64,000 bases of DNA from an uncultured virus (IMG/VR IMGVR_UViG_3300026185_000029) (taxonomy: Duplodnaviria; Heunggongvirae; Uroviricota; Caudoviricetes), in IMG/VR virus record IMGVR_UViG_3300026185_000029; one strand, given 5' to 3'. The notes beneath the pieces were generated by a model. The model had not been told where the DNA came from. It saw nothing but the letters and a program-made list of their open reading frames with translations, and searched no databases. Each line of letters starts with the position of its first letter. Positions within the stretch are counted from its first letter, which is position 1. Shown piece by piece: positions 13,460 to 56,892 of the stretch. The translations under genes and the position numbers were made by a program.

Positions 13460-13521
13460 AGATAGGTTTTCTAAGGTGGTAGCACTCCCTTAGGATTGAA
13501 GGTTCAAATCCTTCCTATTTA
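13460..13521 (+). ncRNA. Truncated tRNA-like element (acceptor + T arm + one hairpin)
   Basis: AGATAGG/CCTATTT, GAAGG-TTCAAAT-CCTTC. Confidence 0.5.
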
Positions 13522-13695
13522 TCTAGACTAGGAGTCTAACCTAGTATAAAAATCTAATGGAAACATTAGGCAAGCACTCCCTCATACAGAGGTTAGGGGA
13601 GAACAATGCTTGAGACGTCCTCAGCCAGGCCTAAGTACTTACGTTATTGTAAGTATATGGCGCTAATGTTTATCCTTTAGGAGGGATATAGAAAC

Positions 13696-14058
13696 ATGGT
13701 CACTGAAACCAAATTCAAATGGCTGGTGAGAAATCTGGAAGAAAACGCGGCAGTTACTCAACGGGCAATTGCAAATGCCCGTCGGGTCCACGAGGAGCGA
13801 GTTTCACAGGTTGTCTCGATCCTAACCCGAGAGGGTTGGACTGAAGTCTATGTAAAGGGGACTCAAGTCTAAGGGGAGCAAGGCCTCCTCGGTGGGGCCC
13901 ATCTCGTTGTGAACATCACTGACGGGGTGATGAGTTTCCGGGAGTATTTAGACTCCCAGGAAAGCCTCCTACAAGAGGCGTTTGAGATTGAAGATTACAA
14001 GGACTACCTGAAAGGAGAGGGGGCGCAGTTCGTCGATCTTGACGACTATAAACTGTAA
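13696..14058 (+). pseudogene. 120-codon ORF interrupted by one in-frame TAA (13870..13872); missing from the ORF track
   Basis: MVTETKFKWL...KGTQV*GEQGLLGG...DDYKL* in one frame; strong GGAGGG RBS from the family R leader. Confidence 0.7.
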
Positions 14059-14132
14059 AACCCTTTCAAGAAAAAGAAGAACTAATTCTTCTTTTTTCTA
14101 TCCAGCTAGCATACCTGGATTATAAGTATGCT

Positions 14133-14250
14133 CCCAATTCCTTGGGTTAACCTTTATTGAAAAGATAAAGGAATTAGACAGCAACGTCTAATTAGGAGGT
14201 CCGCAAGGTCGTTCAATAGACATTATTCTATTGGAAGAACGCTAAAGGAC
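14133..14250 (+). ncRNA. Structured family Q, copy 1 of 5 (also 14752..14870, 16248..16365, 17799..17904, 26863..26955)
   Basis: 5' pseudoknot (CCC-GATTCCCT-GGG ... GGGAG), then stem-GCWAGGTC-hairpin-GARCGCTMA-stem, with covariation. Confidence 0.65.
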
Positions 14251-14305
14251 AGTTCTAAGTAATTACTTGGGATGCCCTGTATACATCCTTAAACAAGACA
14301 AGAAT

Positions 14306-14707
14306 ATGTTTAGCCCTGTCACCATAGCATCAGCCATCGTACCCGTGAGCCAAATTTTAGTGTACCCCCTAAAGGGGTGCACATACAGGGTCACGCTCAG
14401 TAGCTGTTACGACCTCACATACGAGGACGTAAAAATTCTCGGTAAAAACTTGATGGACAGACTGTCATGTCCTAGTGACTTCGAAGTTGACCCCAAAATG
14501 TCCCCCGCTGAAAACGGGGAAAGACTAGCTAAGCATCTGGTGGAAGTGGCGGAGCGGAGGCTCCGTCTAGCCAAGAGCTTTGGATATTTCGTTGAAGTCG
14601 AGGAGCGTATAGCTGCTCGGCACCACCTATTGGCAACGAAAGTGTCTACAGTGGAGGTAGACGAGGGAGACCCAGAATATAACTGTAGAGACTTTCTCTG
14701 CAGTTAA
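14306..14707 (+). CDS. Hypothetical protein
   Basis: ORF 14267..14707, likely ATG 14306. Confidence 0.6.
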   Translation: MFSPVTIASAIVPVSQILVYPLKGCTYRVTLSSCYDLTYEDVKILGKNLMDRLSCPSDFEVDPKMSPAENGERLAKHLVEVAERRLRLAKSFGYFVEVEERIAARHHLLATKVSTVEVDEGDPEYNCRDFLCS

Positions 14708-14956
14708 TTATCATCCCTACCCTGCTAGCATACCAGGGTTACAAGTATGCTCCCGATTCTCTGGGTTAATTTCTACTGAAAAGGTAGATGGATTAAACTT
14801 TCATTAGTTTAATTGGGAGGTCCGCAAGGTCGTTCAATAGAGTAATACCTATTGGAAGAACGCTAAAAGGCATAGAGGAGACAACCTCTAGTAATATAGT
14901 AATATATTACAAATTAAATCAATAAGACATAAGAACGAGAATAGGACAGGTACAAG

Positions 14957-16003
14957 CTATAACTTGTAAGTTCCTTTAATCTCTAACATCTTATCTCTGA
15001 CACTAGCCCCGGCTTCTTCAGCAGTATGGAAGTAACCACATTCATACTTCTTTTTGCTGTGGGAGAAGGACCCTCTATATCTCTTAGCCTTCAACCCTCT
15101 ACCTTTACAAAAGACTACTCCTAATGGTAGGTCTTTTTTATAGATTAAAGAGATAGGCTGAGGTTTAAGAGAAAGAGAAGGAGCAGGTTCTGACAGCTTT
15201 AATGCTGTCTTCCAATTATCAGGTAGTAGATGGGAATAGCTTGGCAGTACGTGTCTTAGCAATTGCTGTCTTGCCTCTAGTTGGGTCATAAGGGAAGAAG
15301 CGGCTTGAAGTGCTAAATGTTCTCCATGAATGAATTGAACATTCTTCATGAGGCTTATAAAGCACTTAGCTTCTTCATTAATCCCTTTAGGACTGACAAG
15401 ATAAAGAGTATAATTGGTTCTATGTAGATTGAAGAGCAGATCGGGATATCGCCTTTCAAAGAATATTTCTTTAAGGTCGGTCATAGTAATCCTATGCATC
15501 TTCACTTCATAATATATAGCCTCACCACATACTTTTAAATCTATCCTTCTTGTAGGAGGAGTGTCAGAGACAGTATTGGCTAAGATAATCTCTTTCTGTA
15601 GTGGTTTATCTGTTCTAGAGAATAGATCAACTAACTGTGCTACATAATAGTCTTCAGAGGAAGGCTTATGTAGAGAAGGAGTAACTCCCCTGAGAATTTC
15701 ATCAGCCCAAGTTATTACTTGTACATGAAATTCAGGAGAGAGCCATCTAGCCAAATCTATAGCCACTAAACGATGAACCCAGGTTCCTTGTTCAGTAAAG
15801 CTATTCCCCTTTCTTATATAGACTGCTGGTGATGGGCAGATCAGCCTATCACTTTCTAAAGCTTTCATAAAAGCTTTAGTAGAGTCTAGTCTTAGATAAT
15901 CTTTGGGGACTTTATTAAAAGCTTTACACATGGCTGTAGCTGAGAAGAATCCATCTTCTCTAATCTCTATGACATTATCTTTAAAGGATTTTGTTATAAT
16001 CAT
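14957..16003 (-). CDS. KilA-N domain protein with PD-(D/E)XK-like middle and AP2-like C-terminus
   Basis: DGFFSATAMCKAFNK..DYLRLDST..QGTWVH..AIDLARWLSPEF (KilA-N); RIDL..YYEVK; KRYRG..YECGYFHTAEEAG (AP2-like). Confidence 0.8.
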   Translation of the reverse strand: MIITKSFKDNVIEIREDGFFSATAMCKAFNKVPKDYLRLDSTKAFMKALESDRLICPSPAVYIRKGNSFTEQGTWVHRLVAIDLARWLSPEFHVQVITWADEILRGVTPSLHKPSSEDYYVAQLVDLFSRTDKPLQKEIILANTVSDTPPTRRIDLKVCGEAIYYEVKMHRITMTDLKEIFFERRYPDLLFNLHRTNYTLYLVSPKGINEEAKCFISLMKNVQFIHGEHLALQAASSLMTQLEARQQLLRHVLPSYSHLLPDNWKTALKLSEPAPSLSLKPQPISLIYKKDLPLGVVFCKGRGLKAKRYRGSFSHSKKKYECGYFHTAEEAGASVRDKMLEIKGTYKL

Positions 16004-16426
16004 TCTTATAATTATTTAGATCTACATTTAATAGGAAGAAGTGTACAAGTTCTCTTACAGAAGCTGCCTTACTTTGATTAAGGCTACGAGATATTATTTC
16101 TAATTTCTCTAAGTCTTCTGGGTAGAACCCGATACTCAATTGCTTATATTTCTGCTTCATATTAGAAATTTATAGCATTTATATATTTGAGTATAACCTA
16201 TTCTTCCATTGAATGTAGGTCTTTTAGTTTATTTGAGATGATTAAATCCTGATTCCCCAGGTTAGCTTCTAATTAAAAGTTAGATGGATTAGACAGTAAT
16301 GTCTAATTGGGAGGTCCGCAAGGTCGTTCAATAGAGTAATACCTATTGGAAGAACGCTAAAGGACTTGGAAGCTTACACTAAATAAGTTTCTTATGTCAA
16401 TGACATTTATTCTTTAGAAGGAATCT

Positions 16427-16888
16427 ATGACTATTATCGCAATCAATAAAAAGACGGGTGATTACGTTAAAGACTTAGGCATGAAAGGAGAATACCCGTA
16501 TAGTTCCAGTGTCGGACGTGAAGTGTGCTTTGCGGGACAGAAAGAGTCCCGGTGGTTTCCCACGGAAATTAACCCTAGTGGACAAACCGTCTTAGAGCAA
16601 AAGACCCTGGAATGGATGCATAGAGTAGACCCCTCCTGGACTTGCCAGGTCTTCAATAACAACTACAACGGTTGTAAAGAAGTCGTATTGAAAACTAACG
16701 GAGACGGAACCCAACTGACCTCTAATTTTCCTTATTCATTTAAGGATGAGGTAGTTTACTTCCGTTCAGAGCACAAAGGAGAGTGGATGCTCGATTTAAA
16801 CGAGGAAGACAAGTCGCTGATTCTTCAGCTCATTAAGGACAGCGACCGCATTGATGAATGTGATGATGAAGAATGGATCTTTTGCTGA
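16427..16888 (+). CDS. Hypothetical protein
   Basis: 153 aa, AAGGA RBS, follows a family Q element. Confidence 0.65.
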   Translation: MTIIAINKKTGDYVKDLGMKGEYPYSSSVGREVCFAGQKESRWFPTEINPSGQTVLEQKTLEWMHRVDPSWTCQVFNNNYNGCKEVVLKTNGDGTQLTSNFPYSFKDEVVYFRSEHKGEWMLDLNEEDKSLILQLIKDSDRIDECDDEEWIFC

Positions 16889-17202
16889 TTAATGCATAAT
16901 GCAGCTTAACTTCCTATAAAAGACATTGGTTTAGAGGATCCGTCGACTTAAAAAAACTTACAAGCTCACCATTAAACAGTTTTCTCAGGAAACTGTAGTG
17001 GAAGTGGCTTGTCTGTAATTTCAGAATAGTGGAGTCTACCACTTAAAAATACTAAGGAAACTTAGTACAGATACATTCCCGTTATGTGGTTAGGAATGAT
17101 TTATATCTGAGACGTCCACAGCTTGGCCTAAGTACTTATAGCAATATAAGTATATGGCGCTAATGTTTATCCTTTAGGAGGGATATAACTATAACTATCA
17201 AC

Positions 17203-17613
17203 TTGAATTCGCATAACTTCCTCTCTGTGCTCAAAGACACGGAAGACAATGAAGCCTACACGAGGCATCGCCTCCTTTCGCTATGGAACAGCTTAAAAAA
17301 GAATGATGACATTGCTAAAGCTCAAGAGGGTTTAGCAATGGCTCTGTTCGAGCTTCAGAAAGCTTCAAAAGAGAAAGCCTTCTTTTTTGACAAAGAAGGT
17401 AATAGCTATCTCCCAGGCGGGCTCCACAGTGAGTTAGTCCGTATGACTCGATTGCTTGTAGAAACTATGAATTCAGAGGAGCTTTTTCACCCCTCTGAAT
17501 TCAATTACTCCGAAGGCTATGTAAAACACCTCTTTGTGAAGGTTGTAGCATTAGAGATCCAGGAGTTTGTAGACAACAACCCAAAACACGTCGCGGATAT
17601 GGCGCGACGTTAA
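17203..17613 (+). CDS. Hypothetical protein
   Basis: 136 aa, follows a family R leader. Confidence 0.6.
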   Translation: MNSHNFLSVLKDTEDNEAYTRHRLLSLWNSLKKNDDIAKAQEGLAMALFELQKASKEKAFFFDKEGNSYLPGGLHSELVRMTRLLVETMNSEELFHPSEFNYSEGYVKHLFVKVVALEIQEFVDNNPKHVADMARR

Positions 17614-17619
17614 AGAATT

Positions 17620-17691
17620 AGACATATAGCTTAATGGTAAAGCGTTAATCCTAAGGGATTAATTATGAAGGTTCGATTCCTTCTATGTCTT
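17620..17691 (+). ncRNA. tRNA-like element with closed anticodon arm
   Basis: AGACATA/TATGTCT, normal D and T arms, but TTAATCC-TAAG-GGATTAA replaces the 7-nt loop. Confidence 0.7.
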
Positions 17692-17985
17692 TTGGTATCT
17701 CCTAATGTTTCACTTTTGAGAGTTACTAGGTAATCTTTAGAGATTGCCTAGTGATTCTTTTTATTTAATGAAAGCAATAAAGGTTAATCAGGATTATTAC
17801 CCGATTCCCTGGGTTAACTCTTAATTAAAAGTTAAGAGGATTAGACTTTCATTAGTCTAATTGGGAGACCTGCTAGGTCGTCTTCTTGACGAGCGCTCAA
17901 AGGTTTAAATTACATTTACTCTCCTCTCTTTCTGAGGCCTTTAAATATGTATCCTATTTTCTCTTTTTGAGATAAGGGCTCCTAA

Positions 17986-19371
17986 CTACTTAACGGTAAT
18001 GCAAGTCTTTATATTTAACTGCTTAGCCCTTTCGTCCACAGCTTTCTTTATCTTCTTGATTAGTGAGTTCTTACGACGGGAATCTGCAGGTTCGATAGAC
18101 ACTCCATCATATTGATAGAGAGTAATGGCAAACTGTTTAGTTTCCATTGCCAAATCAAAGATGGGCTCTAGAAGGAGCGCTTCATACTCACTTATCTCCT
18201 CTGAGATAATGGAAAGGTGATTTGAGTTATACATACCGTTGCTGGTAAAAGAATGAGGCTTATGGGTTATACCCATTGGAGTCTTAACTTCTTCTTGTGT
18301 AGCCAAGTCCTTAAGCTTTCTAGCTTTACCTTCCATTAATTGGGCTATGATTGGATGCTTTAGGAAGTCATTGCTGCCGAAGTATTGTTCAGAGCATAAT
18401 GTTAATTGTCTTTGTGACATACCATAAACGGCACTATAGAGAAGAGTCTTTAAATTACTCTTTGCTTCAGCGTCTGTTAGGGATAATCCAAGGTCAGGCA
18501 TTAATACTTCCCATATAGATTTACCTTGTGATAGAAGTTCTTGAAGTTCGGGGATGTCCCACAACTTAGCTACTATAGCTAGGTGAGCGTTCTGTAAATC
18601 AAGTTCTATCCAGTGGCCAGTAAGAATCTTGCGGAGGTGGCTGTGGATAGTCTGCAATCCTCTATTGACTTGGAAGAACCTTACAGTATTTCCTGTGAGA
18701 CTAGGTCGATATATTGGTTGAGCTTGCTCCTTCATCTCTTGAAGAATATGGAGTTGCTCTAGATGACATTTAGGATTAACGATTAAGTTTCCTGATTCAT
18801 CTGTGTCATACAATGCTTCCATAGCTAAAGGTATCTTATCAAGAACCTTACTGAAACGGATGGCAGGTAGACGATTAAGATATGTCATAAACTTTAGGAT
18901 TATGGGAGGGGTGTTACTTAGAGATAAATAGAATTGGCTTATTTTCAAGTCTTCTTCCTTTAATTGCTTTCGGGTGTCTTTGTTGAAAGACATACCATTA
19001 GCTATAAAGCATCTCTTTGCCTTTCTATCATAATTCCTTAACTCTTTCTCGACAAGGTCTAAGACCTGTCTAGGGAAGTTAACTGTTGCATGTCTACAGT
19101 AATGTCTATATTTACTGTAAGGCAACACTTCATATTGCATAACTTCATCATGGAAGTCTGTGATATAATTAATACCAGAGAAGCAGTTATTAACAATATC
19201 ATCTAGAACTCTATAATCTCTACCTATCTGATAGATTCCAATAGGAATTTGTCTATAATTTGAATTAAAGAGTAATCTGGACATGTGCCTCCAATGACCC
19301 TCATTGTCTTTTAGACCTGGGTACATAGAGAGTAAAGCTTCTCTGAATTCAACAGTACATGTACGTTTCAT
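17986..19371 (-). CDS. Family-A (PolA/T7-RNAP fold) polymerase-like protein, paralogue 1
   Basis: Motif A WIELDLQNAH, motif B KSNLKTLLYSAVYGMS, motif C LYQYDGV; no exonuclease domain visible. Confidence 0.7.
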   Translation of the reverse strand: MKRTCTVEFREALLSMYPGLKDNEGHWRHMSRLLFNSNYRQIPIGIYQIGRDYRVLDDIVNNCFSGINYITDFHDEVMQYEVLPYSKYRHYCRHATVNFPRQVLDLVEKELRNYDRKAKRCFIANGMSFNKDTRKQLKEEDLKISQFYLSLSNTPPIILKFMTYLNRLPAIRFSKVLDKIPLAMEALYDTDESGNLIVNPKCHLEQLHILQEMKEQAQPIYRPSLTGNTVRFFQVNRGLQTIHSHLRKILTGHWIELDLQNAHLAIVAKLWDIPELQELLSQGKSIWEVLMPDLGLSLTDAEAKSNLKTLLYSAVYGMSQRQLTLCSEQYFGSNDFLKHPIIAQLMEGKARKLKDLATQEEVKTPMGITHKPHSFTSNGMYNSNHLSIISEEISEYEALLLEPIFDLAMETKQFAITLYQYDGVSIEPADSRRKNSLIKKIKKAVDERAKQLNIKTCITVK

Positions 19372-19685
19372 ATTGAATATAGTATTGGTTAAGCTAGAAC
19401 TTAACTAATATTTTACTCCTTTTCTATCTTTGATAGTTAAGGAGTTTTTTCATTTTGACGTATATCTTCTAGACGTAAAGTCTAAGATAAAGTAGCTATA
19501 CGCTATAAGGCATAAGAATTATAGGGATTATGTTGATTAATTAATCACGCCCCAAGGGAGTGAACCATCCTGTGGCCCTCCCTGTCCGGTTGCTGATAAA
19601 GATATGAACTTAAAGATATAATTTTAAGGATATAATCTTAATAGCGATTTTTCCCAAGGTTCCGGTAGTAAAAGGAGTAGAGAAT

Positions 19686-20189: not shown

Positions 20190-20232
20190 ACCAAAAGGAC
20201 ATAGATGGCTTAAGTCTATGTCCTTTTAAGAA

Positions 20233-50082: not shown

Positions 50083-50231
50083 GATAGGAGAAGTATTGAA
50101 TTTGTATCGTCGTGAAAGGGTATTAATGAATTAGAGAATAAGCAGTTATAGCTTACATAGATAAAGCAATTATTAGGCTCGTTAGTTACGGGCCAGTTGT
50201 CGTCAATTTCTAATCAAGGAGAGTTATCGTT

Positions 50232-50441: not shown

Positions 50442-50451
50442 CTAAGAAGGT

Positions 50452-50503
50452 ATTAGATAAAGGAAGTTCCTAATCATAATTATAAATTTACTTCCCATCT
50501 AAT
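50452..50503 (+). ncRNA. Small bulged-stem RNA family Y, copy 1 of 7 (also 53111..53170, 53995..54055, 57692..57759, 58400..58455, 63619..63679, 63721..63787)
   Basis: Outer stem-AAA-RAGTTCCTA-(AT-rich loop)-TTACTY-bulge-outer stem; the outer stems covary. Confidence 0.65.
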
Positions 50504-50672
50504 TTACTGATCTTGATGAGAATGTAGGTGAATAAGGAATAAAGAGAGTTAGATGTAAACAGGTTTTTGTTACTGTCCCATCTTTTCTAATAATCTTTAT
50601 TTCTTATTCATTTTTATATACACAAGGATACGATATCATATATACTCTTCAATATTGAGGAGATGACAATAG

Positions 50673-50744
50673 GGGTGTGTAGTTCAACGGACAGAACAGG
50701 GACCTTCTAAGTCTCATATGGGGGTTCGATTCCCTCCACACCTG
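50673..50744 (+). tRNA. tRNA-Arg(TCT)
   Basis: GGGTGTG/CACACCT, GGGAC-CTTCTAA-GTCTC, GGTTCGATTCC. Confidence 0.9.
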
Positions 50745-50900
50745 TTTAGACCAACGGGCCAACTTCAATCAGGATTTGGATGATATATGTAGAGAAATAC
50801 AAGTCTATGGTTTTGACACCTCTCCTCATCTGATGAAAATGGTAGAGGAGGCCGATGGTAAACTCTAATAATAAATTAAATAAGAAGGAGAGAAATACAA

Positions 50901-52430
50901 ATGAGTACATTTAAAGATAGTGTCTTTAGTGATAAAAGTATTGGTATTGGAACTAATGTATCTACTTGGAATGGGGCTATTTCCTATGACTCTACTAGTT
51001 CTTCATTGGTAGACCTATTCTTTAAATTAGGTAGAGCCTTTAATAACTTTGATAATAACTTTGATTTATTGGTTGAAGCACTAGACTTAGACCCTGTAGC
51101 TACACTTAAGATTATCTTTCATGCAAGAGACCCCCGAGGAGGTAAAGGAGAGAAACAATTATTCATTGATATCTTCCAGCACAACTGGGGTATTCATGAA
51201 AATAAACGTATATCCCTATTAAGTACTGAAGAGTTCTGGTTATTAGCTGCAGAGTATGGAAGTTGGAAAACAACTATCCAATTGGGATATTCTTTAGACC
51301 CTGTTAGTCGTGAGGGGCAATCCTTTCTTCAAGCTGTTAAGAAGCAGTTGAAGCAAGATATCACCTCTGATCGTCCTAGCTTATTAGGCAAATGGCTACC
51401 TCGTGCAAGTAAAAGTCTAGCTAAGACTTATCCTTTAATGCAAAAGGCTTTACTAAAGTCTTTGAGTATGAAAGAGAAAGAATACCGTCAGACGGTGTCT
51501 AGTTTATCTGCAAGGCTCAAGGTAGTAGAGCACTATATGTCTTCCCGAGATTGGGAGCATATTAATTACTCAACGGTTCCTTCCGTGGCTATGAAGATTT
51601 ATTCTTCTGCGTTCCAGCGTCATGATGAAAAAGGATTCTCCGATTGGATTCAACAAATCCAGGAAGGGGTATCTGAAGTGAAAGCCAAATTACTTCATCC
51701 TCATGAAGTATTGAAAGGAGTCTGTAGTGTTGAAGGAGACCAATTAACTCTTAAACAAGAGCAATGGAAAGTCTTAGTAGAGGAAGTTAAAGCTAAAGGA
51801 GTCTTGTCTAACATGATTCCTCTATGTGATGTCTCGGGATCCATGGAAGGGCTTCCAATGGAAGTTTCTATAGCCTTGGGTTTACTCATTAGTCAGGTAG
51901 TAAAAGAACCTTTCAAGGATCTTGTAATTACCTTCAGTGCTGACCCTGAGCTATATCACCTAGATAGCAAGCGCTATCTGCGAGCACGTTACGAAAAGTT
52001 GAGGAATGCACCTTGGGGATTCAATACCGACCTTCAAAAAGTATTTGATCTAATCCTTAATCGGAGTCAACAATACAATGTCCCGGATGAGGATATGCCC
52101 AAAGTACTGCTTATCTTATCAGATATGCAGTTTGATGAAGCAGCTCGAGATTCTTCGTTAACCAACTTTGAGTCTATCCAGGTTAAATACAATGAAGCTG
52201 GTTATACTATGCCTCATATCGTATTCTGGAATCTCAACAGTACAACATTAGATTTCCCTGCACCTCTAGGAGATAAAGTCTCCTTCATCAGCGGGTTCTC
52301 ACCTGTTGTCCTTCAAGCCTTTATGGATGGGGAACAGCTAGGTTCGCGTCAAGTCCTCAATAAGTTAGTGCTAGAGAATCCTAGATACCAACCTATTGAA
52401 GAGCTATGCACTTCCGCCTGGAATACATAG
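50901..52430 (+). CDS. DUF2828-type TROVE-like helical protein with C-terminal vWA domain
   Basis: VDLFF, IFHARDPRGGKGE, EYGSWK, LLGKWLPR, YSTVPSVAM, MIDAS DVSGSM, LSDMQFD, IVFWNL, SGFS. Confidence 0.85.
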   Translation: MSTFKDSVFSDKSIGIGTNVSTWNGAISYDSTSSSLVDLFFKLGRAFNNFDNNFDLLVEALDLDPVATLKIIFHARDPRGGKGEKQLFIDIFQHNWGIHENKRISLLSTEEFWLLAAEYGSWKTTIQLGYSLDPVSREGQSFLQAVKKQLKQDITSDRPSLLGKWLPRASKSLAKTYPLMQKALLKSLSMKEKEYRQTVSSLSARLKVVEHYMSSRDWEHINYSTVPSVAMKIYSSAFQRHDEKGFSDWIQQIQEGVSEVKAKLLHPHEVLKGVCSVEGDQLTLKQEQWKVLVEEVKAKGVLSNMIPLCDVSGSMEGLPMEVSIALGLLISQVVKEPFKDLVITFSADPELYHLDSKRYLRARYEKLRNAPWGFNTDLQKVFDLILNRSQQYNVPDEDMPKVLLILSDMQFDEAARDSSLTNFESIQVKYNEAGYTMPHIVFWNLNSTTLDFPAPLGDKVSFISGFSPVVLQAFMDGEQLGSRQVLNKLVLENPRYQPIEELCTSAWNT

Positions 52431-52439
52431 AAGAAAATA

Positions 52440-52917
52440 AGGCCCCTTACAGCAATATCTTTTTTATGAGGATAAACTAAATGGGGCCTGTTCTAGTTTT
52501 CATCATTTGTGTTTATAGATGAAGCAAAACTTCCTTAATTATCAAGCTGCCAACTTTGAGTTAAGATAGTTTAGATAGATTCATCTATAGATAAAGTCCC
52601 TAACAGCAATTTAAATGTTTTGTTATAACTAAATGGGACTTGTGCAAAAGACTACATGAAGATCTCTAACAGCAATCTAATTTCTAATGCATACAGAATA
52701 AATTGAGATCTGAGTAGTCCTAATAGAAGAAGAGGGTTTGGATATACATTTATGTGTATCAGAAAATCCTTAACAGCATAACTATAATACTAAGAGAAGA
52801 AGACCTCTAACAGCAATTCAAATCTAACAAACATAGAAAAAATGAGGTCTGTAGAAACACAGTTATAAAGCCCCTAACAGCAACTTAAATGTTTTGTTAT
52901 AACTAAATGGGGCTTGT
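52440..52917 (+). ncRNA. Array of five ACAGCAA hairpin RNAs (52440..52491, 52594..52643, 52660..52712, 52801..52852, 52868..52917)
   Basis: 7-bp closing stems differ in sequence but always pair (AGGCCCC/GGGGCCT, AAGTCCC/GGGACTT, AGATCTC/GAGATCT, AGACCTC/GAGGTCT, AAGCCCC/GGGGCTT) around invariant TWACAGCAA...AAAT; sixth copy at 59131..59179. Confidence 0.8.
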
Positions 52918-53272
52918 AGTAACTGTATTTAGATAGATTGAATCTATCAACTAAAGGCATATAGTTTAGATCATTAGCGTGGAGGACGAAAGAAATCCAC
53001 AGTTTGTCATTTTGTGTGGAATTAGTATGTAAGAGTCAAATAGCACTTAAAGATTTTATCTACTAAATCTACATATCAATTCCTAATGATGTAATTTAAA
53101 TATAGAAACGAAGAAGGCAAAGGGAGTTCCTATATTTTTAAGATATAAAGCTTACTCCTCAGCTTTCTTGTTTTTCATCTTTTTACGTTTAGTATTCCAA
53201 TCACTAATAGCTTTTAATCCTCAAATGAATTGAGGGCGTATGTAATAGGTTAGTTTAGTTAACTAAATAAAA

Positions 53273-53349
53273 ACATCTATAGTTTAATAAGCAAAATAAT
53301 ACTTTTTTCACGAGAAGTAGAGATAAAGGTTTGAATCCTTTTAGATGTA
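53273..53349 (+). ncRNA. Degenerate tRNA-like element
   Basis: ACATCTA/TAGATGT, TACTTTTT-TCAC-GAGAAGTA arm, AAAGG-TTTGAAT-CCTTT. Confidence 0.55.
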
Positions 53350-53387
53350 TGTTTTGTTCGAATGTTTAGTAGATTAAGGAGCGAGTT

Positions 53388-53894
53388 ATGTCTCATTGGA
53401 CTTACGTCAAGGGTCACTTTAAGGCTAGTATTGACAGTAAAAATGGAGATAAAAGAATAAGACTAGGGAATGTTATCGATATAAAATGTATTCCGAGTTA
53501 TATCAGTATAGCCCCCAGAGAAGTTGCCTTTTTCCTTTATCAACAGTTTAAACTAGTTGGCTTAAGGCTCTTACCCTTTCAATGTATTAAAGGAGATGAA
53601 GGGTATCTTATGTTCACTTATTTAATGCCTAGTTGGCTAGGAGGAACAACTACAACTGTATGCCGTGGTAATCTTAGAGGTTTAGAAGAAGATGAAGTAT
53701 ATGATACAGTCCAACCTTGGATTGATAATGTACTTGATCATCACAAATTTCCCATTGATGCAAATGTAAAAGCAACTACTGCTACTCATACTCATGAATG
53801 GAATATTACGTTCTCTGAAACAACATATACCCGAACTGGAGTAGAGGATAATGGGGTGGGTAATGGTTTAGATAAGAACTCTCTTCACTTTTGA
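53388..53894 (+). CDS. Hypothetical protein
   Basis: MSHWTYVKG...RGNLR pattern; AAGGAG RBS. Confidence 0.65.
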   Translation: MSHWTYVKGHFKASIDSKNGDKRIRLGNVIDIKCIPSYISIAPREVAFFLYQQFKLVGLRLLPFQCIKGDEGYLMFTYLMPSWLGGTTTTVCRGNLRGLEEDEVYDTVQPWIDNVLDHHKFPIDANVKATTATHTHEWNITFSETTYTRTGVEDNGVGNGLDKNSLHF

Positions 53895-54203
53895 GGAGAG
53901 GAAGTCCTTACATCACAGACTACCCTGACAAAAGGATATCTTCTATATTTCATCAATAAGTAGAATAAGAAAGCTACAACTTTCATCGTAGAATAAGGAA
54001 GCTAAAAGGAGTTCCTATATTTTTAAGATATAAAGCTTACTCCTCAGCTTTCTTGCTATTCTCATCTTTTTACGTTTAGTATTCCAATCACTAATAGCTT
54101 TTTAATCTTCAAATGAATTGAGGGAGTATAGTTCAACTGACCCATAGAATAAGTCTTTAATAGAAGGGCTGAAAGAAGAGTTTATATTATGTAACTATTA
54201 ATT

Positions 54204-54398
54204 ATGAAAAGTTTAAATATTAAAGGTAAATGGTATTTTGATCCCAAGCGGGACAAAGATCTATTAGAGGTTTATAGCAGATTTGCTCTTTTATGCACCT
54301 GTTTTGAAGAGGAGCAACAACGGCTAATGGAGTCTTTATTACAAGTTCCTGAAGGAACTTCCATACAGATTTCTATACTAGTAGGGGATGATGATTAA
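54204..54398 (+). CDS. Hypothetical protein (paralogue of 56428, inside a duplicated segment)
   Basis: FDP.RDK.LLE.Y.RFALL..CFEEEQ..GTSIQISILVGDD; flanking DNA is also duplicated. Confidence 0.7.
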   Translation: MKSLNIKGKWYFDPKRDKDLLEVYSRFALLCTCFEEEQQRLMESLLQVPEGTSIQISILVGDDD

Positions 54399-54529
54399 CA
54401 AACAGATATAAATATTTATAAGAACTGATAAATGTATTAATATATATTAATATTAATTAATCAATCAGTTTTTATAAATAATTATGGAAGAATCTTCTAA
54501 ATAATATAAGTTCAATTGTTCATTTTCTT

Positions 54530-54602
54530 CTCTCCGTAGTTCAGTTGGATAGAACACGAACCTCCTAAGTTTGAGACCCCTGTTCGAGTCAGGGCGGAGA
54601 GG
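54530..54602 (+). tRNA. tRNA-Arg(CCT)
   Basis: CTCTCCG/CGGAGAG, CGAAC-CTCCTAA-GTTTG, CCCTG-TTCGAGT-CAGGG. Confidence 0.9.
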
Positions 54603-54677
54603 CTTAACACCTTTATATTGGATATATAGAATAAAGGGATACAAGAGGATTAAGATTCTTATAAGAACCAATAAATT

Positions 54678-55244
54678 ATGGATGTCTTTAGACACTTCAA
54701 TGTTCCTATTATTCCCACCCATGGAGAGGTACCTTCTGATGGCTTATATTGCTATTCAGATGGGAGTACGAATAGATTTACAGAGGATTGGATTAAGGGT
54801 CAATTAGGATTTGTAAATACAGATGAAGTGACCTATTATGGGGTTTCTTCCTGTGGGAGCTGGGGGAATAAAGTAACTAACATTACACCTTCCGCCGTCT
54901 CGTATAAAGATTTTCTATTCAAAATAATTCCGGTTGGAGTTATGGGATACTACAGTGTAGAGATTGGAGTATTAGGAGGAGAGTCCCATATACTCGAAGG
55001 GTATTACAAACCTTCTAGAATGAGTATAGTTTTAGATAGAGTTATAGAATTTGCCAATGAGCTTTATCTTAAACTTAAAATAGACCATTTGGTTGTAGAA
55101 GGAGATATTAGAGAAATCTCTGACCTTCAATTTGATCCTGAAGTAGGCAAGTGGTTTTATCAAGGTAAAGTTGTTGTTGATAAGTCTTATTGTCAACTAC
55201 CTATTCATAACTACTACGTTGTTACATACTTTGTCAAAGCATAA
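54678..55244 (+). CDS. Hypothetical protein
   Basis: 188-aa ORF. Confidence 0.65.
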   Translation: MDVFRHFNVPIIPTHGEVPSDGLYCYSDGSTNRFTEDWIKGQLGFVNTDEVTYYGVSSCGSWGNKVTNITPSAVSYKDFLFKIIPVGVMGYYSVEIGVLGGESHILEGYYKPSRMSIVLDRVIEFANELYLKLKIDHLVVEGDIREISDLQFDPEVGKWFYQGKVVVDKSYCQLPIHNYYVVTYFVKA

Positions 55245-55273
55245 ACAAAAAGGAAAGGAAAGGAAAGCATAAC

Positions 55274-55996
55274 ATGGCTATTAATTGTGAATGGTTAGAT
55301 ACTCCCATTTCAGAAGGCCTCTACTGGTCATATGATCCAGAGAAAGGGGTGCTACACGGCCGCAACCGTCAGCAGTCTAGTAGTATCCGTATCACTTCAA
55401 TAATCGGGAATAAAGATCCCCGAGAAGTCGTAAACGCTTTAAACGAAGCATCTAAGAAGTTTAATAATCCTAAATTAGAGGACTTTAACTTCTCTAAGCC
55501 GGGTAGTAGAATTGCTATGGTTAAAGAATTACGGGGATGCAGAGACTTAGGCTTAAAGGAGGCTAAGGAATTAGTAGAGAGCCTTCTTCAAGAAGATCAG
55601 GGGGGATTACCCTTTACTCCTTATTCAGGTATTCCTGAATTAGAAGGTATGGGATATTTTCCATTTGAACCCACCCAACCGTTTCCGTTAGAAGGAGCTG
55701 AGGTATTAGGTTATAATATTTGTGATAAACCTCAAGAGGTTTCAGAGGTTATTGCATGGTCAGTGGACTTATATTTGGATACATTCTTAATCCGTCCTTG
55801 CTTCATGCTATTAGAGTCAGGATTAGGTTGGAATCCAGTTGATAAAGTTCTAGTAATGGTTGGGGCGCGTCCAGGCACTTCCTTCTTAGAATGTGAAACT
55901 CATGAAGAGGCGGTTCAAGGGATTGAGATTCTTCGTAAAGCCTTTAAAGCAGGTGAAGAAAGTATGAAACAAAAGGTTGTAAAAGCAATGACCTAA
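55274..55996 (+). CDS. Protein with embedded ribosomal bL12 (L7/L12) C-terminal-like motif
   Basis: SRIAMVKELRGCRDLGLKEAKELVE. Confidence 0.7.
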   Translation: MAINCEWLDTPISEGLYWSYDPEKGVLHGRNRQQSSSIRITSIIGNKDPREVVNALNEASKKFNNPKLEDFNFSKPGSRIAMVKELRGCRDLGLKEAKELVESLLQEDQGGLPFTPYSGIPELEGMGYFPFEPTQPFPLEGAEVLGYNICDKPQEVSEVIAWSVDLYLDTFLIRPCFMLLESGLGWNPVDKVLVMVGARPGTSFLECETHEEAVQGIEILRKAFKAGEESMKQKVVKAMT

Positions 55997-56059
55997 AGTC
56001 TCAAAGTTATTATAGATATATCTACACTATTTTTATTGGTGTAGGTATATCTAATAAAT

Positions 56060-56131
56060 GGGCATATAGTTCAATGGATAGAACAGGGACCTTCTAAGTC
56101 TCATATGGGGGTTCGATTCCCTCTATGCCTG
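56060..56131 (+). tRNA. tRNA-Arg(TCT), second copy
   Basis: GGGCATA/TATGCCT; anticodon and T arms identical to 50673. Confidence 0.9.
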
Positions 56132-56197
56132 TGATCAATTTATGAATAAAGAGCAGTCAAAGGATGTTAGGGAGTTTAATAAAGATTTTAAGGGATT

Positions 56198-56398
56198 ATG
56201 AAAACTAACATCTGGCAGATTAGTATTGGTTACTACGATAACCATAGATGGGTTTATCCTCACACTGTGGAAGTAATATTACCTGTCGAAGGTTCCGAAC
56301 AAGGATATACCAAGGCTGGTAAAATAGTTAGAGAGTTATATCCTAATTGTGTAATTTACAGTTATACAAGGAAACCCACTAATAGAATAAGTCTCTAA
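56198..56398 (+). CDS. Hypothetical protein
   Basis: 66 aa, AAGGG RBS. Confidence 0.55.
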   Translation: MKTNIWQISIGYYDNHRWVYPHTVEVILPVEGSEQGYTKAGKIVRELYPNCVIYSYTRKPTNRISL

Positions 56399-56427
56399 TA
56401 GGAGCAGAAAGAGGAGTTTAGATAATT

Positions 56428-56622
56428 ATGAAAAATTTAATTTTTAAATGTAATTGGAATTTTGATCCCGAGCGGGACAAATATTTATTAGAAGAATACT
56501 GTCGATTTGCTCTATTATCCTATTGTTTTGAGGAAGAACAGCGAGAACAAGTAGAATCTTTATTAGATGTTCATAAAGGAACATCTATACAGATTTCTAT
56601 ACTAGTAGGGGATGATGCTTAA
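56428..56622 (+). CDS. Hypothetical protein (paralogue of 54204)
   Basis: High identity to 54204; GAGGAG RBS. Confidence 0.7.
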   Translation: MKNLIFKCNWNFDPERDKYLLEEYCRFALLSYCFEEEQREQVESLLDVHKGTSIQISILVGDDA

Positions 56623-56816
56623 CAGATCTAAATATTTATAAGAGCTGATAAATGTATTAATATTAAGTAATCAATCAGTTCTTATGAATAGTTATGGAAG
56701 AATCGAACAAAGAGAAAGAATTATGTCTATTCAACAATGTGAATTACTAAGCGATTAAATTCTTAGGTAAATCCTTCTAATTAGTAAACAACTCTTAAAA
56801 AGGATTTACCTTTTAT

Positions 56817-56892
56817 CCTCCAGTACCTCAGTTTGGTAGAGGGTTCTATTTATTAAATAGAAATGACGAACGTTCAAATCGTTCCTGGAGGA
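56817..56892 (+). tRNA. tRNA-like gene with extended anticodon arm (identity unclear)
   Basis: CCTCCAG/CTGGAGG, normal D and T arms, TTCTATTT-ATT-AAATAGAA. Confidence 0.6.

What the first reader, a model, noticed from the sequence alone, without database searches (positions are those of the whole stretch)
13460..56892. About 17 tRNA mimics that keep the acceptor stem and T arm but have abolished the anticodon loop
Seen: elements at 13460, 17620, 20597, 23104, 25732, 26143, 27409, 28028, 32052, 32543, 33730, 34160, 37283, 38472, 43118, 45567, 53273 and 56817 have paired acceptor stems and T arms. Their anticodon arm is replaced by a longer, well-paired hairpin, often with a 3-4 nt loop (TAAG, GTTA, CAAC, ACAA), and several also lost the D arm. 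Sister copies show compensatory changes (23104/25732, 32052/32543, 27409/43118), which argues for selection on structure rather than decay. Most end 20-55 nt before a start codon. Known: RNase P, RNase Z and CCA-adding enzyme read the acceptor/T elbow and ignore the anticodon, and the window encodes its own CCA enzyme. Inference: a tRNA-punctuation system that cuts or stabilises early mRNAs, or decoys for host tRNA-targeting defences that cannot be cut at an anticodon.
Basis: partly seen in the sequence, partly recalled or inferred. Interest (0 to 1): 0.85.

Follow-up and report, generated by a model that had tools for sequence, protein, structure and literature searches.

The report
Anticodon-less tRNA look-alikes between phage genes
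A soil phage-like genome carries about nineteen RNA elements that keep the top half of a tRNA but cannot read codons, wedged between small genes where they most likely tell the host's tRNA-trimming enzymes where to cut the long messages.

Summary
All 18 listed elements fold with a paired acceptor stem and T arm. I added a nineteenth at 34690-34724, a bare acceptor plus T-arm minihelix. In 14 of the 18 the anticodon arm is a closed hairpin with a loop of 6 nt or less, and 8 lack a D arm.

They are tRNA derivatives. Elements 32052 and 32543 share an identical T arm and downstream leader with tRNA-Lys 31520. Sister copies keep pairing in 19 of 23 changed stem pairs.

All lie on the gene strand, intermixed with 11 ordinary tRNAs. 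Often a stop codon is followed within 18 nt by the element, and a ribosome-binding site and ATG follow 22-52 nt later. None encodes CCA, and T follows the discriminator in 17 of 19.

My best reading (about 0.5) is that they are cis-acting RNase P / RNase Z punctuation signals, like plant mitochondrial t-elements. The decoy reading is untested. No RNA data exist, and no relatives outside close strains were found.

I found no paper describing such arrays in phages. Earlier unchecked notes of this scan report similar elements on other phage DNA.

In passing, the window also holds a Ro60-fold protein, a near-threshold hammerhead ribozyme, and a new small-RNA array.

The parts
13459..13522 (+). tRNA-like element (TLE), D-armless; 8+3 bp hairpin in place of D/anticodon arms
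   Evidence: MFE fold and z -2.2; strict descriptor hit; T loop TTCAAAT
17620..17691 (+). TLE, full cloverleaf with 8-bp closed anticodon arm, UAAG loop; starts 6 nt after the stop of ORF 17203-17613
   Evidence: ARAGORN tRNA-???; Rfam tRNA 60.2 bits; fold z -3.4; map
20597..20677 (+). TLE, D-armless, long interrupted hairpin with GCAA loop; 12 nt after a stop codon
   Evidence: (z -4.0)
23104..23180 (+). TLE, cloverleaf, 10-bp closed arm with 3-nt loop; A1.C72 mismatch that is A-U in strain variant L004
   Evidence: (42.1 bits); SD-ATG 22 nt downstream
25732..25808 (+). TLE, sister of 23104; 9-bp closed arm, GUUA loop; 11 nt after a stop, SD-ATG 28 nt downstream
   Evidence: 42.6 bits; z -4.6
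26143..26221 (+). TLE, D-armless, 9+4 bp hairpin, UUUC loop
   Evidence: (z -3.3)
27409..27486 (+). TLE, D-armless but keeps an AAUGGUUA D-loop remnant; 10+3 bp hairpin, 9-nt loop; SD-ATG 29 nt downstream
   Evidence: (z -4.7)
28028..28093 (+). TLE with 4-bp mini D arm, 5-bp hairpin with 6-nt loop, 6-bp T stem
   Evidence: z -2.3; SD-ATG 27 nt downstream
32052..32124 (+). TLE derived from tRNA-Lys 31520 (identical 17-nt T arm, same downstream leader); 7-bp closed arm, CAAC loop; 12 nt after a stop, SD-ATG 26 nt downstream
   Evidence: 51 bits; D4
32543..32616 (+). TLE, sister of 32052; 8 nt after a stop; in-frame ATG at 32646
   Evidence: (51.3 bits)
33730..33810 (+). TLE, cloverleaf, 11-bp closed arm, ACAA loop; 18 nt after a stop
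   Evidence: Rfam 59.2 bits; z -3.9
34160..34274 (+). TLE, class-II-like: D arm, 8-bp arm with 16-nt loop, 13-bp variable arm; 7 nt after a stop, SD-ATG 35 nt downstream
   Evidence: (z -5.2)
34690..34724 (+). New member: minihelix made only of acceptor stem (same GCAGTGA strand as TLE 34160) stacked on a T arm with TTCAAAT loop; starts 5-7 nt after the stop of ORF 34274-34684
37283..37372 (+). TLE with canonical acceptor and T arm and a 50-nt AT-rich middle of uncertain fold; SD-ATG 32 nt downstream
   Evidence: ARAGORN mis-call 'tRNA-Stop'
38472..38537 (+). TLE, D-armless, 7-bp stem with 7-nt loop UUGACAU, 6-bp T stem
   Evidence: z -2.5
43118..43195 (+). TLE, sister of 27409; 14-bp hairpin; its first base is the last base of the CCA-enzyme stop codon; the TnpB ATG lies 31 nt downstream
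   Evidence: (z -5.2)
45567..45632 (+). Weakest TLE: 7-bp acceptor, 5-bp T-like stem but loop GGCAGAU; SD-ATG 33 nt downstream
   Evidence: (z -2.4)
53273..53349 (+). TLE, AT-rich cloverleaf, 8-bp closed arm, CACG loop; SD-ATG 38 nt downstream
   Evidence: (49.8 bits)
56817..56892 (+). TLE, cloverleaf, 8-bp closed arm with 3-nt loop; SD-ATG 32 nt downstream
   Evidence: ARAGORN mis-call tRNA-Asn(att); z -3.3
10306..57901 (+). Span holding the 11 canonical tRNAs that occupy the same kind of intergenic slots: 10306, 21391, 24445, 24905, 35279, 48123 and 57828 (all CAT); 31520 (Lys CTT); 50673 and 56059 (Arg TCT); 54530 (Arg CCT)
41679..43118 (+). CCA-adding tRNA nucleotidyltransferase (head domain + HD)
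   Evidence: Pfam PF01743/PF01966; phrog_2244; NCBIfam

Best explanation
The elements are tRNA genes that were duplicated within this phage-like genome and then stripped of decoding ability. The anticodon loop was zipped into a hairpin, the D arm was often lost, and in one case everything but the acceptor/T minihelix was lost. Selection kept the acceptor stem, T arm and T loop.

They are transcribed as part of long + strand messages. There the host RNase P cuts at their 5' end, usually a few nucleotides after the upstream stop codon. RNase Z cuts just after the discriminator. This separates cistrons, or trims a 5' leader, and releases the downstream mRNA with a short leader of about 20-40 nt that carries the ribosome-binding site. 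The excised element would be a substrate of the phage's own CCA-adding enzyme.

Shown: the structures, their tRNA origin, structure-preserving evolution, strand, placement, and absence of CCA. Inferred: co-transcription, every cleavage step, CCA addition, and any effect on mRNA stability or translation.
For: (1) Only the parts read by RNase P, RNase Z and CCA enzyme are kept. Acceptor cells pair in 129 of 133 and T-stem cells in 92 of 95, and the T loop is TTCRANT in 15 of 19. The anticodon-arm substitute varies freely in length and sequence. The reduction series ends in a bare minihelix.

(2) Selection for pairing. In three alignable sister pairs, 19 of 23 changed stem pairs stay paired, 11 of them by changes on both sides. 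23104 and 25732 have unrelated but perfect 10- and 9-bp arms. In alignment A2, 98.6% of cells pair, 14 of 16 pairs have double changes, and 0 of 500 shuffles reach this. A decayed tRNA 3'-half at 58768-58807 shows what neglect looks like: reading its printed sequence by eye, I count 2 of its 5 T-stem pairs as broken.

(3) RNA on the + strand. There are 39 G-U among 465 pairs, and the + strand folds better than its complement in 17 of 19.

(4) Placement. All 19 are co-oriented with the genes. 9 of 19 start within 18 nt of an upstream stop. 11 of 19 have an SD-preceded start 22-52 nt downstream, and 13 of 19 if the two with weak SD are counted. 5 of 11 real tRNAs have the same layout at 25-40 nt.

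(5) Trailers suit RNase Z. 0 of 30 elements encode CCA, none starts with CC, and T follows the discriminator in 17 of 19 TLEs and 9 of 11 tRNAs. RNase Z cuts CCA-less precursors after the discriminator and is inhibited by C's there (passages read in PMC8549757 and PMC7479834).

(6) Only one strong + strand terminator lies in 20-40 kb, which is compatible with long transcripts.

(7) A strain variant that lacks ORF 31169-31510 keeps a spacing of about 10 nt between stop and tRNA.

(8) Precedents. Plant mitochondrial t-elements are cut by RNase P/Z and receive C/A additions (PMC1920247, passages read). RNase P separates secG mRNA from leuU in E. coli (PMC2241853, abstract and section titles read).

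(9) A near-threshold hammerhead ribozyme starts 1 nt after another stop codon. This is a second kind of intergenic RNA-cutting device in the same genome.
Against: There is no RNA evidence at all: no listed sequencing run is RNA. The host, and whether it has RNase Z, is unknown.

Orthologue evidence is weak. The apparent contrast of 100% against 80% conservation in relative L009 is an artefact of mosaic blocks that also include flanking sequence. In L004 the contrast is 375/377 against 97.3%, which may be similarly confounded. 0 of the 40 listed strain variants fall in TLEs, where only about 2 were expected (66 more variants were not shown).

6 of 19 elements have no nearby downstream start (17620, 20597, 13459, 33730, 38472 and the minihelix). 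Several in the 53-58 kb region sit after terminator-like hairpins, so they lie in 5' leaders rather than between cistrons. A plain hairpin or an RNase E site would suffice for cutting, so retention of D arms and GG D-loop remnants in many copies hints that the whole elbow matters, which also fits a trans-acting role. If RNase P cut at TLE 43118, it would remove the last base of the CCA-enzyme stop codon.
Confidence: 0.5

Rival explanations
1. Trans-acting decoys or sponges. The excised, CCA-tailed elements accumulate as a pool of non-decoding tRNA bodies. These soak up host factors or defence nucleases and transferases that recognise the tRNA elbow, acceptor end or CCA tail, and they cannot be inactivated at an anticodon loop.
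For: Many copies keep the D arm or a GG-containing D-loop remnant and a canonical T loop, so the whole elbow is retained. The genome invests in tRNA and translation upkeep: a CCA enzyme, a tmRNA and 11 tRNAs. Closed, very stable hairpins would make long-lived RNAs. Six elements have no adjacent downstream gene.
Against: Known anticodon nucleases recognise the anticodon loop (own knowledge), which these elements lack. The 19 sequences are very diverse, and 8 have lost the D arm, so there is no single mimicked tRNA. The tight stop-element-SD-ATG layout is not needed for a free RNA. No defence or counter-defence gene was recognised nearby. No abundance data exist.
Confidence: 0.2
2. Portable leader and recombination modules. 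The unit 'tRNA-like element plus short SD leader' is a mobile regulatory cassette whose repeated sequence mediates shuffling of small accessory genes. This would resemble the promoter/stem-loop cassettes of T4-type phages (recalled). RNA processing would be secondary or absent.
For: tRNA-Lys 31520 and TLE 32052 share a T arm and a near-identical leader, yet precede unrelated ORFs. Strain variants differ by whole-gene indels next to tRNAs: a contig of run X4 joins 31152 to 31519, and the L004 deletion ends inside tRNA 24905. Identity blocks in L009 comprise the element, the leader and the first codons.
Against: Most elements are too diverged from each other for homologous recombination (families; mean column identity 52-65%). 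Compensatory changes argue for selection on RNA pairing, not on DNA identity. Other indel breakpoints are not at elements: the PolA-like gene insertions seen in L008 and L009.
Confidence: 0.1
3. 5'-end stabilisers or translation modulators that are not excised at the 3' side. After RNase P trimming, the folded element stays on the downstream mRNA as a base-paired 5' cap that shields it from 5'-end-dependent decay or tunes ribosome access.
For: There is a constant short distance to the SD and start: 22-38 nt in 10 elements. Some sit in 5' leaders after terminator-like hairpins. The section titles of PMC2241853 state that RNase P separation destabilises the upstream secG mRNA.
Against: The T after the discriminator and the absence of C or CCA look like RNase Z substrates. 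Real tRNAs in the same slots must be released to function.
Confidence: 0.08
4. Partners or substrates of the phage's Ro60-like protein. The elements would be Y-RNA-like tRNA mimics, or misfolded-RNA mimics, that bind the TROVE ring.
For: ORF 50901-52430 (DUF2828/DUF7788) is modelled at pLDDT 91.7, and its 12 best PDB fold matches are all Ro60, Rsr or TROVE, at E 7e-8 to 8e-5. Bacterial Y RNAs mimic tRNA, and one is cut by RNase P and gets CCA (PMC4201824, passages read). TLE 53273 lies 843 nt downstream of the gene.
Against: The topology differs: Y RNAs close with a Ro-binding stem formed by the 5' and 3' ends. There is no Rfam Y RNA or YrlA match. A better candidate partner lies directly after the gene: five stem-closed RNAs of about 50 nt. 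18 of the 19 elements are far from the gene.
Confidence: 0.07
5. Decaying tRNA pseudogenes with no function.
For: They derive from tRNAs. A few copies have terminal mismatches (23104, 26143, 32543, 43118). 45567 and 37283 are poor.
Against: Decay does not build perfect 7-14 bp helices where a loop was, and it does not produce 11 double compensatory changes among sisters. The genuine remnant at 58768 has lost pairing. A strain variant restores A1-U72 and the TTCGAAT loop in 23104.
Confidence: 0.05

Closest known systems
Plant mitochondrial t-elements (Forner et al. 2007, PMC1920247; passages read)
   Same: Both are non-decoding tRNA-like folds with a conserved T arm (GGTTCRANYCC-type) and acceptor stem and a non-canonical rest, embedded in mRNA precursors next to coding regions. 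In plants their ends coincide with mRNA termini, and the excised element gets non-encoded C/A.
   Different: The plant elements are organellar, few per genome and experimentally mapped. Here there are about 19 in 44 kb of a bacterial-virus-like genome, interleaved with real tRNAs, showing a graded series down to a minihelix, with a cognate CCA enzyme encoded alongside. Nothing is mapped.
Mitochondrial tRNA punctuation, and bacterial mRNA-tRNA co-transcripts separated by RNase P (secG-leuU, PMC2241853; abstract and outline read)
   Same: tRNA-shaped units between or beside cistrons serve as endonuclease signals.
   Different: Those units are functional tRNAs. Here most units have lost the anticodon, so punctuation, or another non-decoding role, would be their only function.
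Bacterial Y RNAs / YrlA (Chen et al. 2014, PMC4201824; passages read)
   Same: Both are non-coding tRNA mimics with T arm, D arm and acceptor-like stem. M. smegmatis YrlA is cut by RNase P and receives CCA. A Ro60-fold protein is encoded in the window.
   Different: YrlA is circularly permuted relative to tRNA: its ends lie in the Ro-binding stem. It has a conserved Ro-binding motif and lies next to rsr. The elements here have tRNA topology, give no Rfam match, and are dispersed.
Gammaherpesvirus 68 tRNA-like vtRNAs/TMERs and the mascRNA of MALAT1 (recalled; only a search listing was seen for 10.1101/2019.12.22.886382)
   Same: Both are viral or cellular tRNA-shaped RNAs that are processed by RNase P/Z and CCA-tailed but do not decode.
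   Different: Those are eukaryotic and serve as Pol III or processing handles for other RNAs. They are not arrays between protein genes.
Haloarchaeal t-elements (search listing only, PMC6546412; also named in earlier scan note e1-5803452)
   Same: A tRNA-like structure is used as an RNase P/Z cutting signal beside a non-tRNA RNA.
   Different: That case is archaeal, involves single sites, and flanks rRNA or engineered crRNA.

Membership tests
Canonical tRNA (Rfam RF00005) | 7-bp acceptor stem plus T arm with a T-psi-C-type loop | tested here: met
   129 of 133 acceptor cells and 92 of 95 T-stem cells pair; TTCRANT loop in 15 of 19 (with the register of 28028 and 38472 corrected from the folds)
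Canonical tRNA (Rfam RF00005) | Score at or above the family's gathering score | tested here: inconclusive
   7 of 19 reach it (42-60 bits against 29). 12 of 19 do not appear even at E<=1.
Canonical tRNA (Rfam RF00005) | 5-bp anticodon stem with a 7-nt loop presenting U33 and a 3-nt anticodon | tested here: not met
   14 of 18 have closed stems with 3-6 nt loops. 27409, 34160 and 37283 have aberrant loops. Only 38472 has a 7-nt loop, on a 7-bp stem in a D-armless body. The minihelix has no arm at all.
t-elements (tRNA-like mRNA processing signals) | tRNA-like fold with conserved T arm and acceptor stem, other arms non-canonical | tested here: met
t-elements (tRNA-like mRNA processing signals) | Lies within an mRNA precursor, co-oriented, next to coding regions | tested here: inconclusive
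   Co-orientation and tight spacing are shown. Co-transcription is not shown.
t-elements (tRNA-like mRNA processing signals) | Element ends coincide with mapped RNA termini; RNase P/Z cleavage; non-encoded CCA | not testable with these tools
   No RNA run holds the sequence
Y RNA / YrlA | Ro-binding stem formed by the 5' and 3' ends, with the tRNA-like domain permuted | tested here: not met
   The ends lie in the acceptor stem. There is no Y RNA or YrlA match in the Rfam scans.
Y RNA / YrlA | Encoded next to a Ro60 orthologue and bound by it | tested here: inconclusive
   A Ro60-fold protein is present. Only TLE 53273 is near it. Binding is not testable.

The most novel reading that the evidence does not exclude
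The phage deliberately manufactures a pool of 'blind' tRNA bodies. The elements are excised by host RNase P/Z and CCA-tailed by the phage enzyme. They then act in trans as uncuttable decoys for host immunity or toxins that recognise the tRNA elbow, acceptor end or CCA tail, or as regulators of the phage's Ro60-like RNA-surveillance particle. Punctuation of the messages is only the way they are produced. Together with the phage tmRNA, CCA enzyme, hammerhead ribozyme and Ro60-like protein, this would be a virus-encoded RNA-maintenance and counter-defence toolkit built largely from recycled tRNA genes.
Probability: 0.2. Interest if true: 0.9.

Novelty: new variant of a known kind. Interest (0 to 1): 0.72.

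Why it matters
tRNA-shaped cutting signals are textbook for mitochondria, but I found no paper describing them for phages. The searches were made, over full-text PMC and bioRxiv; subscription journals are not covered.

Here a single genome shows the whole evolutionary series: working tRNA, then closed-anticodon cloverleaf, then D-armless form, then bare minihelix. At least one parent-to-derivative pair (tRNA-Lys to 32052 and 32543) is still recognisable. This makes directly testable how a virus re-uses tRNA genes for a non-decoding job.

If confirmed, there would be three consequences:
- Phage 'tRNA-???' and 'pseudo-tRNA' calls would need re-reading as regulatory elements.
- Dispersed phage tRNAs could be understood partly as message punctuation.
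- Compact, portable RNase P/Z processing modules would become available for engineering polycistronic constructs.

Unchecked notes of this scan report similar elements in several unrelated phages, so the phenomenon may be widespread.

Tried and rejected
Relatives:
- Megablast and tblastn against 50,697 phage records gave nothing. Distant blastn hit only generic tRNAs.
- IMG/VR scans with the CCA enzyme, the Ro60-like protein, ORF 4078-5349 and a 22-nt TLE word gave only distant loci or none, and none held TLEs.
- The metagenome scan with the PolA-like family gave 20 loci. Only L004-L009 belong to this lineage. The other 14 hold no TLE by my descriptor.
- The GTDB genome scan gave 3 distant loci without TLEs.
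- No whole genome or record is held.

Expression: no RNA holder was listed among 8 soil-metagenome runs.

Conservation:
- The 114/114 against 80% contrast in L009 was rejected as evidence after one search showed mosaic identity blocks that include the flanks.
- The strain-variant table has 0 of 40 listed sites in TLEs, with about 2 expected, which is not significant. 66 sites were not shown.

Candidates and alternative readings dropped:
- My extra candidate at 30697-30768 was dropped because it has 22 differences in L004. Other descriptor hits (26410, 29886, 36358, 62627, 62667) match the chance rate.
- An intron or 4-base-anticodon reading of the ARAGORN '???' calls was rejected, because the extra loop bases are complementary and close the loop.
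- Stop-codon recoding as an explanation for the 'tRNA-Stop' call and the roughly 1-kb ORF-free gaps opened no long frame.

Ro60-like protein: sequence searches against the PDB were negative or limited to weak vWA-domain matches. Only the fold search linked it to Ro60.

Other: sigma-70-type promoter matches are fewer than in shuffles, which is uninformative for an unknown host. PMC202377 (the original RNase Z paper) is not held. A preference for U after the discriminator is therefore my recollection. What I read supports only cleavage after the discriminator and inhibition by C or CCA.

Full report
CONTEXT

The window is part of a contig of about 119.5 kb seen in soil metagenomes (the window's CCA enzyme is found on one contig of 119,540 bp; 8 soil-metagenome DNA runs).

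It is phage-like. It holds 11 canonical tRNAs and a tmRNA, a KilA-N protein, a TnpB, a CCA-adding enzyme and a DUF2828 'RNA-binding protein' of a mostly viral family. Most ORFs match nothing, so 'phage' is an inference.

The CCA enzyme is 49-53% identical to enzymes of Planctomycetota and Verrucomicrobiota. That is only a hint at the host.

Yes.

Detection by standard tools:
- ARAGORN reports 20 genes. Five are 'tRNA-???' with 2- or 4-letter anticodons (17620, 23104, 25731, 32051, 32542), and three are mis-named (37282 'Stop', 53273 'Glu', 56817 'Asn').
- Rfam's tRNA model scores 7 of the listed elements above its gathering score, from 42 to 60 bits. The alignments show the model's anticodon loop replaced by local insertions.
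- The other 9 of 18 are invisible to both tools. They fold without constraints into acceptor stem, central hairpin and T arm.

Fold statistics:
- Z-scores against dinucleotide shuffles run from -1.1 to -5.2, and 9 of 18 have 0 of 200 shuffles folding as well.
- Over 19 elements, 129 of 133 acceptor cells and 92 of 95 T-stem cells pair, and the T loop is TTCRANT in 15 of 19. 28028 and 38472 have 6-bp T stems, so I corrected their register from the folds.

Against chance:
- A strict descriptor finds 26 loci on the + strand, 4 on the - strand, and 3.5 +/- 1.9 in 100 shuffles.
- Of the 26 loci, 10 are canonical tRNAs, 10 are listed elements and 6 are at the chance level.
- GTTCRANTC occurs 32 times (29 on +) against 3.06 +/- 1.9 expected.

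At 34690-34724 there is a hairpin consisting only of a 7-bp acceptor stem stacked on a T arm. Its acceptor strand is the same as that of TLE 34160, and it begins 5-7 nt after a stop codon.

WHAT THE ELEMENTS LOOK LIKE

- Nine are cloverleaves with a D arm: 17620, 23104, 25732, 32052, 32543, 33730, 34160, 53273 and 56817.
- The rest lack a D arm. Several keep a GG-containing D-loop remnant such as AAUGGUUA in 27409 and 43118.
- In 14 of 18 the anticodon arm is a 5-14 bp helix closed by 3-6 nt.
- The exceptions are 27409 (9-nt loop), 34160 (16-nt loop and a 13-bp variable arm), 38472 (7-nt loop) and 37283 (uncertain fold).
- The closing hairpins share no sequence.
- The extra loop bases that ARAGORN reads as 4-letter anticodons are complementary and pair, so these are not quadruplet decoders.

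ORIGIN AND SELECTION

TLEs 32052 and 32543 descend from a copy of tRNA-Lys(CTT) 31520:
- The 17-nt T arm is identical.
- The acceptor and D stems differ by compensatory changes.
- The downstream leader is nearly the same.

Sister-pair comparisons:

| Pair | Stem pairs | Unchanged | Kept, one side changed | Kept, both sides changed | Broken |
|---|---|---|---|---|---|
| 32052 / 32543 | 23 | 17 | 4 | 1 | 1 |
| 27409 / 43118 | 24 | 16 | 3 | 3 | 2 |
| 17620 / 32052 | 24 | 15 | 1 | 7 | 1 |

In total, 19 of 23 changed pairs remain paired.

Further points:
- 23104 and 25732 carry unrelated yet perfect 10-bp and 9-bp arms.
- On alignment A2 (8 TLEs plus tRNA-Lys), 98.6% of 144 cells pair, 14 of 16 pairs show changes on both sides, and 0 of 500 shuffles reach this. 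Part of that covariation is inherited from different parent tRNAs, so it proves tRNA shape more than selection after conversion.
- A genuine remnant, the tRNA 3' half at 58768-58807, is 88% identical to tRNA 57828. Comparing the two printed sequences by eye, I count 2 of its 5 T-stem pairs as broken. This is what neglect looks like.
- The strain variant L004 changes 23104 at two sites. Both move it towards canonical form: TCCGAAT becomes TTCGAAT, and A1.C72 becomes A1-U72.
- The RNA is on the + strand. There are 39 G-U among 465 pairs, and the + strand folds better than its complement in 17 of 19.

ORTHOLOGUE EVIDENCE IS THIN, AND ONE APPARENT RESULT FELL

Relative L009 seemed to show 114/114 identical TLE positions against 80% identity elsewhere. 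The base-by-base alignment shows mosaic blocks of identity that also cover flanking leader and coding sequence. This is therefore not evidence of element-specific constraint.

That contrast may be confounded in the same way.

In contigs of four further runs, 0 of the 40 listed variant sites lie in TLEs, where about 2 would be expected, and 66 sites were not shown.

More distant loci carrying the PolA-like gene hold no TLE. In the data I could reach, the array is confined to this lineage.

PLACEMENT

- All 19 elements and all 11 tRNAs are on the + strand, among small + strand ORFs.
- Nine of 19 elements begin within 18 nt after a stop codon: 17620, 20597, 25732, 32052, 32543, 33730, 34160, the minihelix, and 43118. 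The first base of 43118 is the last base of the CCA-enzyme stop codon.
- Eleven of 19 are followed, 22-52 nt after the discriminator, by a Shine-Dalgarno-preceded start of an ORF of at least 35 codons. Ten of these lie at 22-38 nt.
- Two more (32543 and 43118) have an in-frame ATG at about 30 nt with a weak SD.
- Five of 11 real tRNAs have the same layout at 25-40 nt.
- None of the 30 elements encodes CCA, and none has CC after the discriminator. T follows the discriminator in 17 of 19 TLEs and 9 of 11 tRNAs.
- Only one strong + strand terminator-like site lies between 20 and 40 kb.
- A strain variant (a contig of run X4) lacks ORF 31169-31510. Its replacement sequence begins with TGA and leaves about 10 nt before tRNA-Lys, so the short stop-to-tRNA spacer is kept.
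- In the 53-64 kb part, a 5-copy terminator-like hairpin family (D2) precedes TLE 53273 and tRNA 57828. Those two therefore sit in 5' leaders rather than between cistrons.

MECHANISM

Three enzymes read the acceptor/T half of tRNA and accept minihelices: RNase P, RNase Z and CCA-adding enzyme (established knowledge). Passages in two papers support two points about RNase Z. It cuts CCA-less precursors right after the discriminator (PMC8549757), and C or CCA at that position inhibits it (PMC7479834).

The elements keep exactly that half, down to a bare minihelix, while everything needed for decoding is destroyed or dispensable. They sit where a cut would separate an upstream cistron from a downstream SD leader.

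I therefore favour cis-acting RNase P/Z punctuation (confidence about 0.5), with the excised element a likely substrate of the phage CCA enzyme. All cleavage steps are inferred.

The closest precedent is the plant mitochondrial t-element. Its ends match mRNA termini, and it carries non-encoded C/A (PMC1920247, passages read). E. coli secG-leuU shows that RNase P can separate an mRNA from a tRNA and thereby change mRNA stability (PMC2241853, abstract and section titles read).

A second, independent intergenic RNA cutter may be present. A hammerhead type II match scores 36.8 bits against a gathering score of 37. It has intact CUGAUGA, GAAA and GUC core elements and starts 1 nt after the stop of ORF 9115-9390.

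RIVALS

- A trans-acting decoy or sponge role (0.2) is not excluded. It is favoured by retention of elbow features, and it cannot be tested here.
- A recombination or portable-leader role (0.1) fits the shared tRNA-plus-leader module before unrelated ORFs and the gene-sized indels beside tRNAs. It may coexist with punctuation.
- A retained 5' cap role (0.08) differs from punctuation only in whether the 3' cut happens.
- The Ro60 link (0.07) arose because ORF 50901-52430 is modelled with pLDDT 91.7 on a 60-sequence alignment, and its 12 best fold matches are all Ro60, Rsr or TROVE proteins, including a phage Ro60. However, the TLEs have tRNA topology rather than Y-RNA topology, and there is no Rfam Y RNA match. 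A better candidate partner lies directly downstream of the gene (see below).
- Neutral decay (0.05) is contradicted by the compensatory changes.

NOVELTY

Six full-text searches found no description of anticodon-less tRNA-like arrays in phage genomes. A survey of viral structured RNAs mentions 'tRNA or tRNA-like' candidates only generically (PMC10690425, passages read). Subscription journals are not covered.

Earlier notes of this scan (unchecked AI notes on other genomes) describe similar single elements or small sets in other phages and a haloarchaeal virus. The scan has therefore seen this before on other DNA. I used those notes only as leads: the secG-leuU paper, and awareness of 'top-half' hairpins.

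What is special here is the number (19 in about 44 kb), the full reduction series, a recognisable parent tRNA, and the accompanying CCA enzyme, tmRNA, Ro60-like protein and ribozyme.

Noticed in passing
window 9391-9464 (+): Hammerhead ribozyme type II match at 36.8 bits, where the gathering score is 37. The conserved CUGAUGA, GAAA and GUC cleavage triplet are intact. It starts 1 nt after the stop codon of ORF 9115-9390. It may be a self-cleaving intergenic processing site.
   Followed up: partly
window 52440-52918 (+): Five copies of an element of about 50 nt lie directly downstream of the Ro60-like gene. Each has a 6-7 bp closing stem that differs between copies by compensatory changes, and a conserved CU(U/A)ACAGCAA(U/C) at the 5' side of a large loop (5 matches against 0.5 expected). 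There are weak matches (21-33 bits, GA 41.5) to the Dictyostelium Class I RNA model. These are candidate partner RNAs of the Ro60-like protein.
   Followed up: partly
window 50901-52430 (+): The DUF2828/DUF7788 protein (phrog_850 'RNA-binding protein') has a Ro60/TROVE plus vWA fold. The AF2 model has pLDDT 91.7, and the 12 best PDB matches are all Ro60, Rsr or TROVE (E 7e-8 to 8e-5, TM up to 0.60), including a Thermus phage Ro60. Sequence searches of the PDB did not show this.
   Followed up: yes
window 17986-19371, 28385-29803, 39839-41281 (all -); also 59238-61211 (-): Three paralogues (67% and 38-40% identical) belong to an 18-member metagenomic family with weak DNA polymerase A motif matches (PF00476, E 0.004; one relative carries the Pfam call). 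Each has the D18 repeat upstream. A solo D18 lies at 24002, where relative L008 has such a gene, and L009 has one inserted near 26860, so the gene behaves as a mobile cassette. The C-terminal part of the 657-aa ORF is distantly related.
   Followed up: partly
window 10306, 21391, 24445, 24905, 35279, 48123, 57828 (+): Seven of the 11 canonical tRNAs carry anticodon CAT (Met or Ile2-type; none has initiator features by eye). The rest are Lys-CTT and Arg-TCT x2 and Arg-CCT. This is an unusual excess of one anticodon.
   Followed up: no
window 34838-35238 (+): A phage-encoded tmRNA (Rfam 118.7 bits) has the tag peptide ANNIVPFARKAAFVVA. It is flanked by the minihelix upstream and a tRNA-CAT 40 nt downstream.
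   Followed up: no
window 43116-43225: TLE 43118 begins at the third base of the CCA-enzyme stop codon, so an RNase P cut there would leave a message without a complete stop codon. The element ends 31 nt before the ATG of a TnpB (guided_TnpB, 268.6 bits).
   Followed up: no
window 53113, 53998, 57695, 58401, 63622 (+): Five copies of a 64-nt hairpin repeat (family D2) are each followed by a T-rich run and mostly sit just after ORF ends. They look like terminators or 3' stabilisers.
   Followed up: no
window 10600-17900: Several other families of structured intergenic repeats occur here (D7/D17/D19, D10/D13, D12, D16, D20). They differ from the tRNA-like elements and are unexplained.
   Followed up: no
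window 58768-58807 (+): This is the 3'-half remnant of a tRNA-CAT, 88% identical to tRNA 57828, with 2 of 5 T-stem pairs broken by my reading of the printed sequences and no 5' half. It overlaps the end of ORF 58525-58770.
   Followed up: partly
window 12209-13458, 36092-37282, 52431-53272: These are ORF-free gaps of 0.8-1.25 kb. Reading TAA, TAG or TGA as sense opens no long + strand frame, so they are probably non-coding RNA or regulatory regions. A T-arm-like hairpin without an acceptor stem lies at about 13362-13384.
   Followed up: partly
window 31152-31519; L004 junction 23920/24944: Strain variants differ by whole-gene indels bordering tRNAs. One contig of run X4 lacks ORF 31169-31510. 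L004 lacks 23921-24943, and that deletion ends inside tRNA-CAT 24905.
   Followed up: partly
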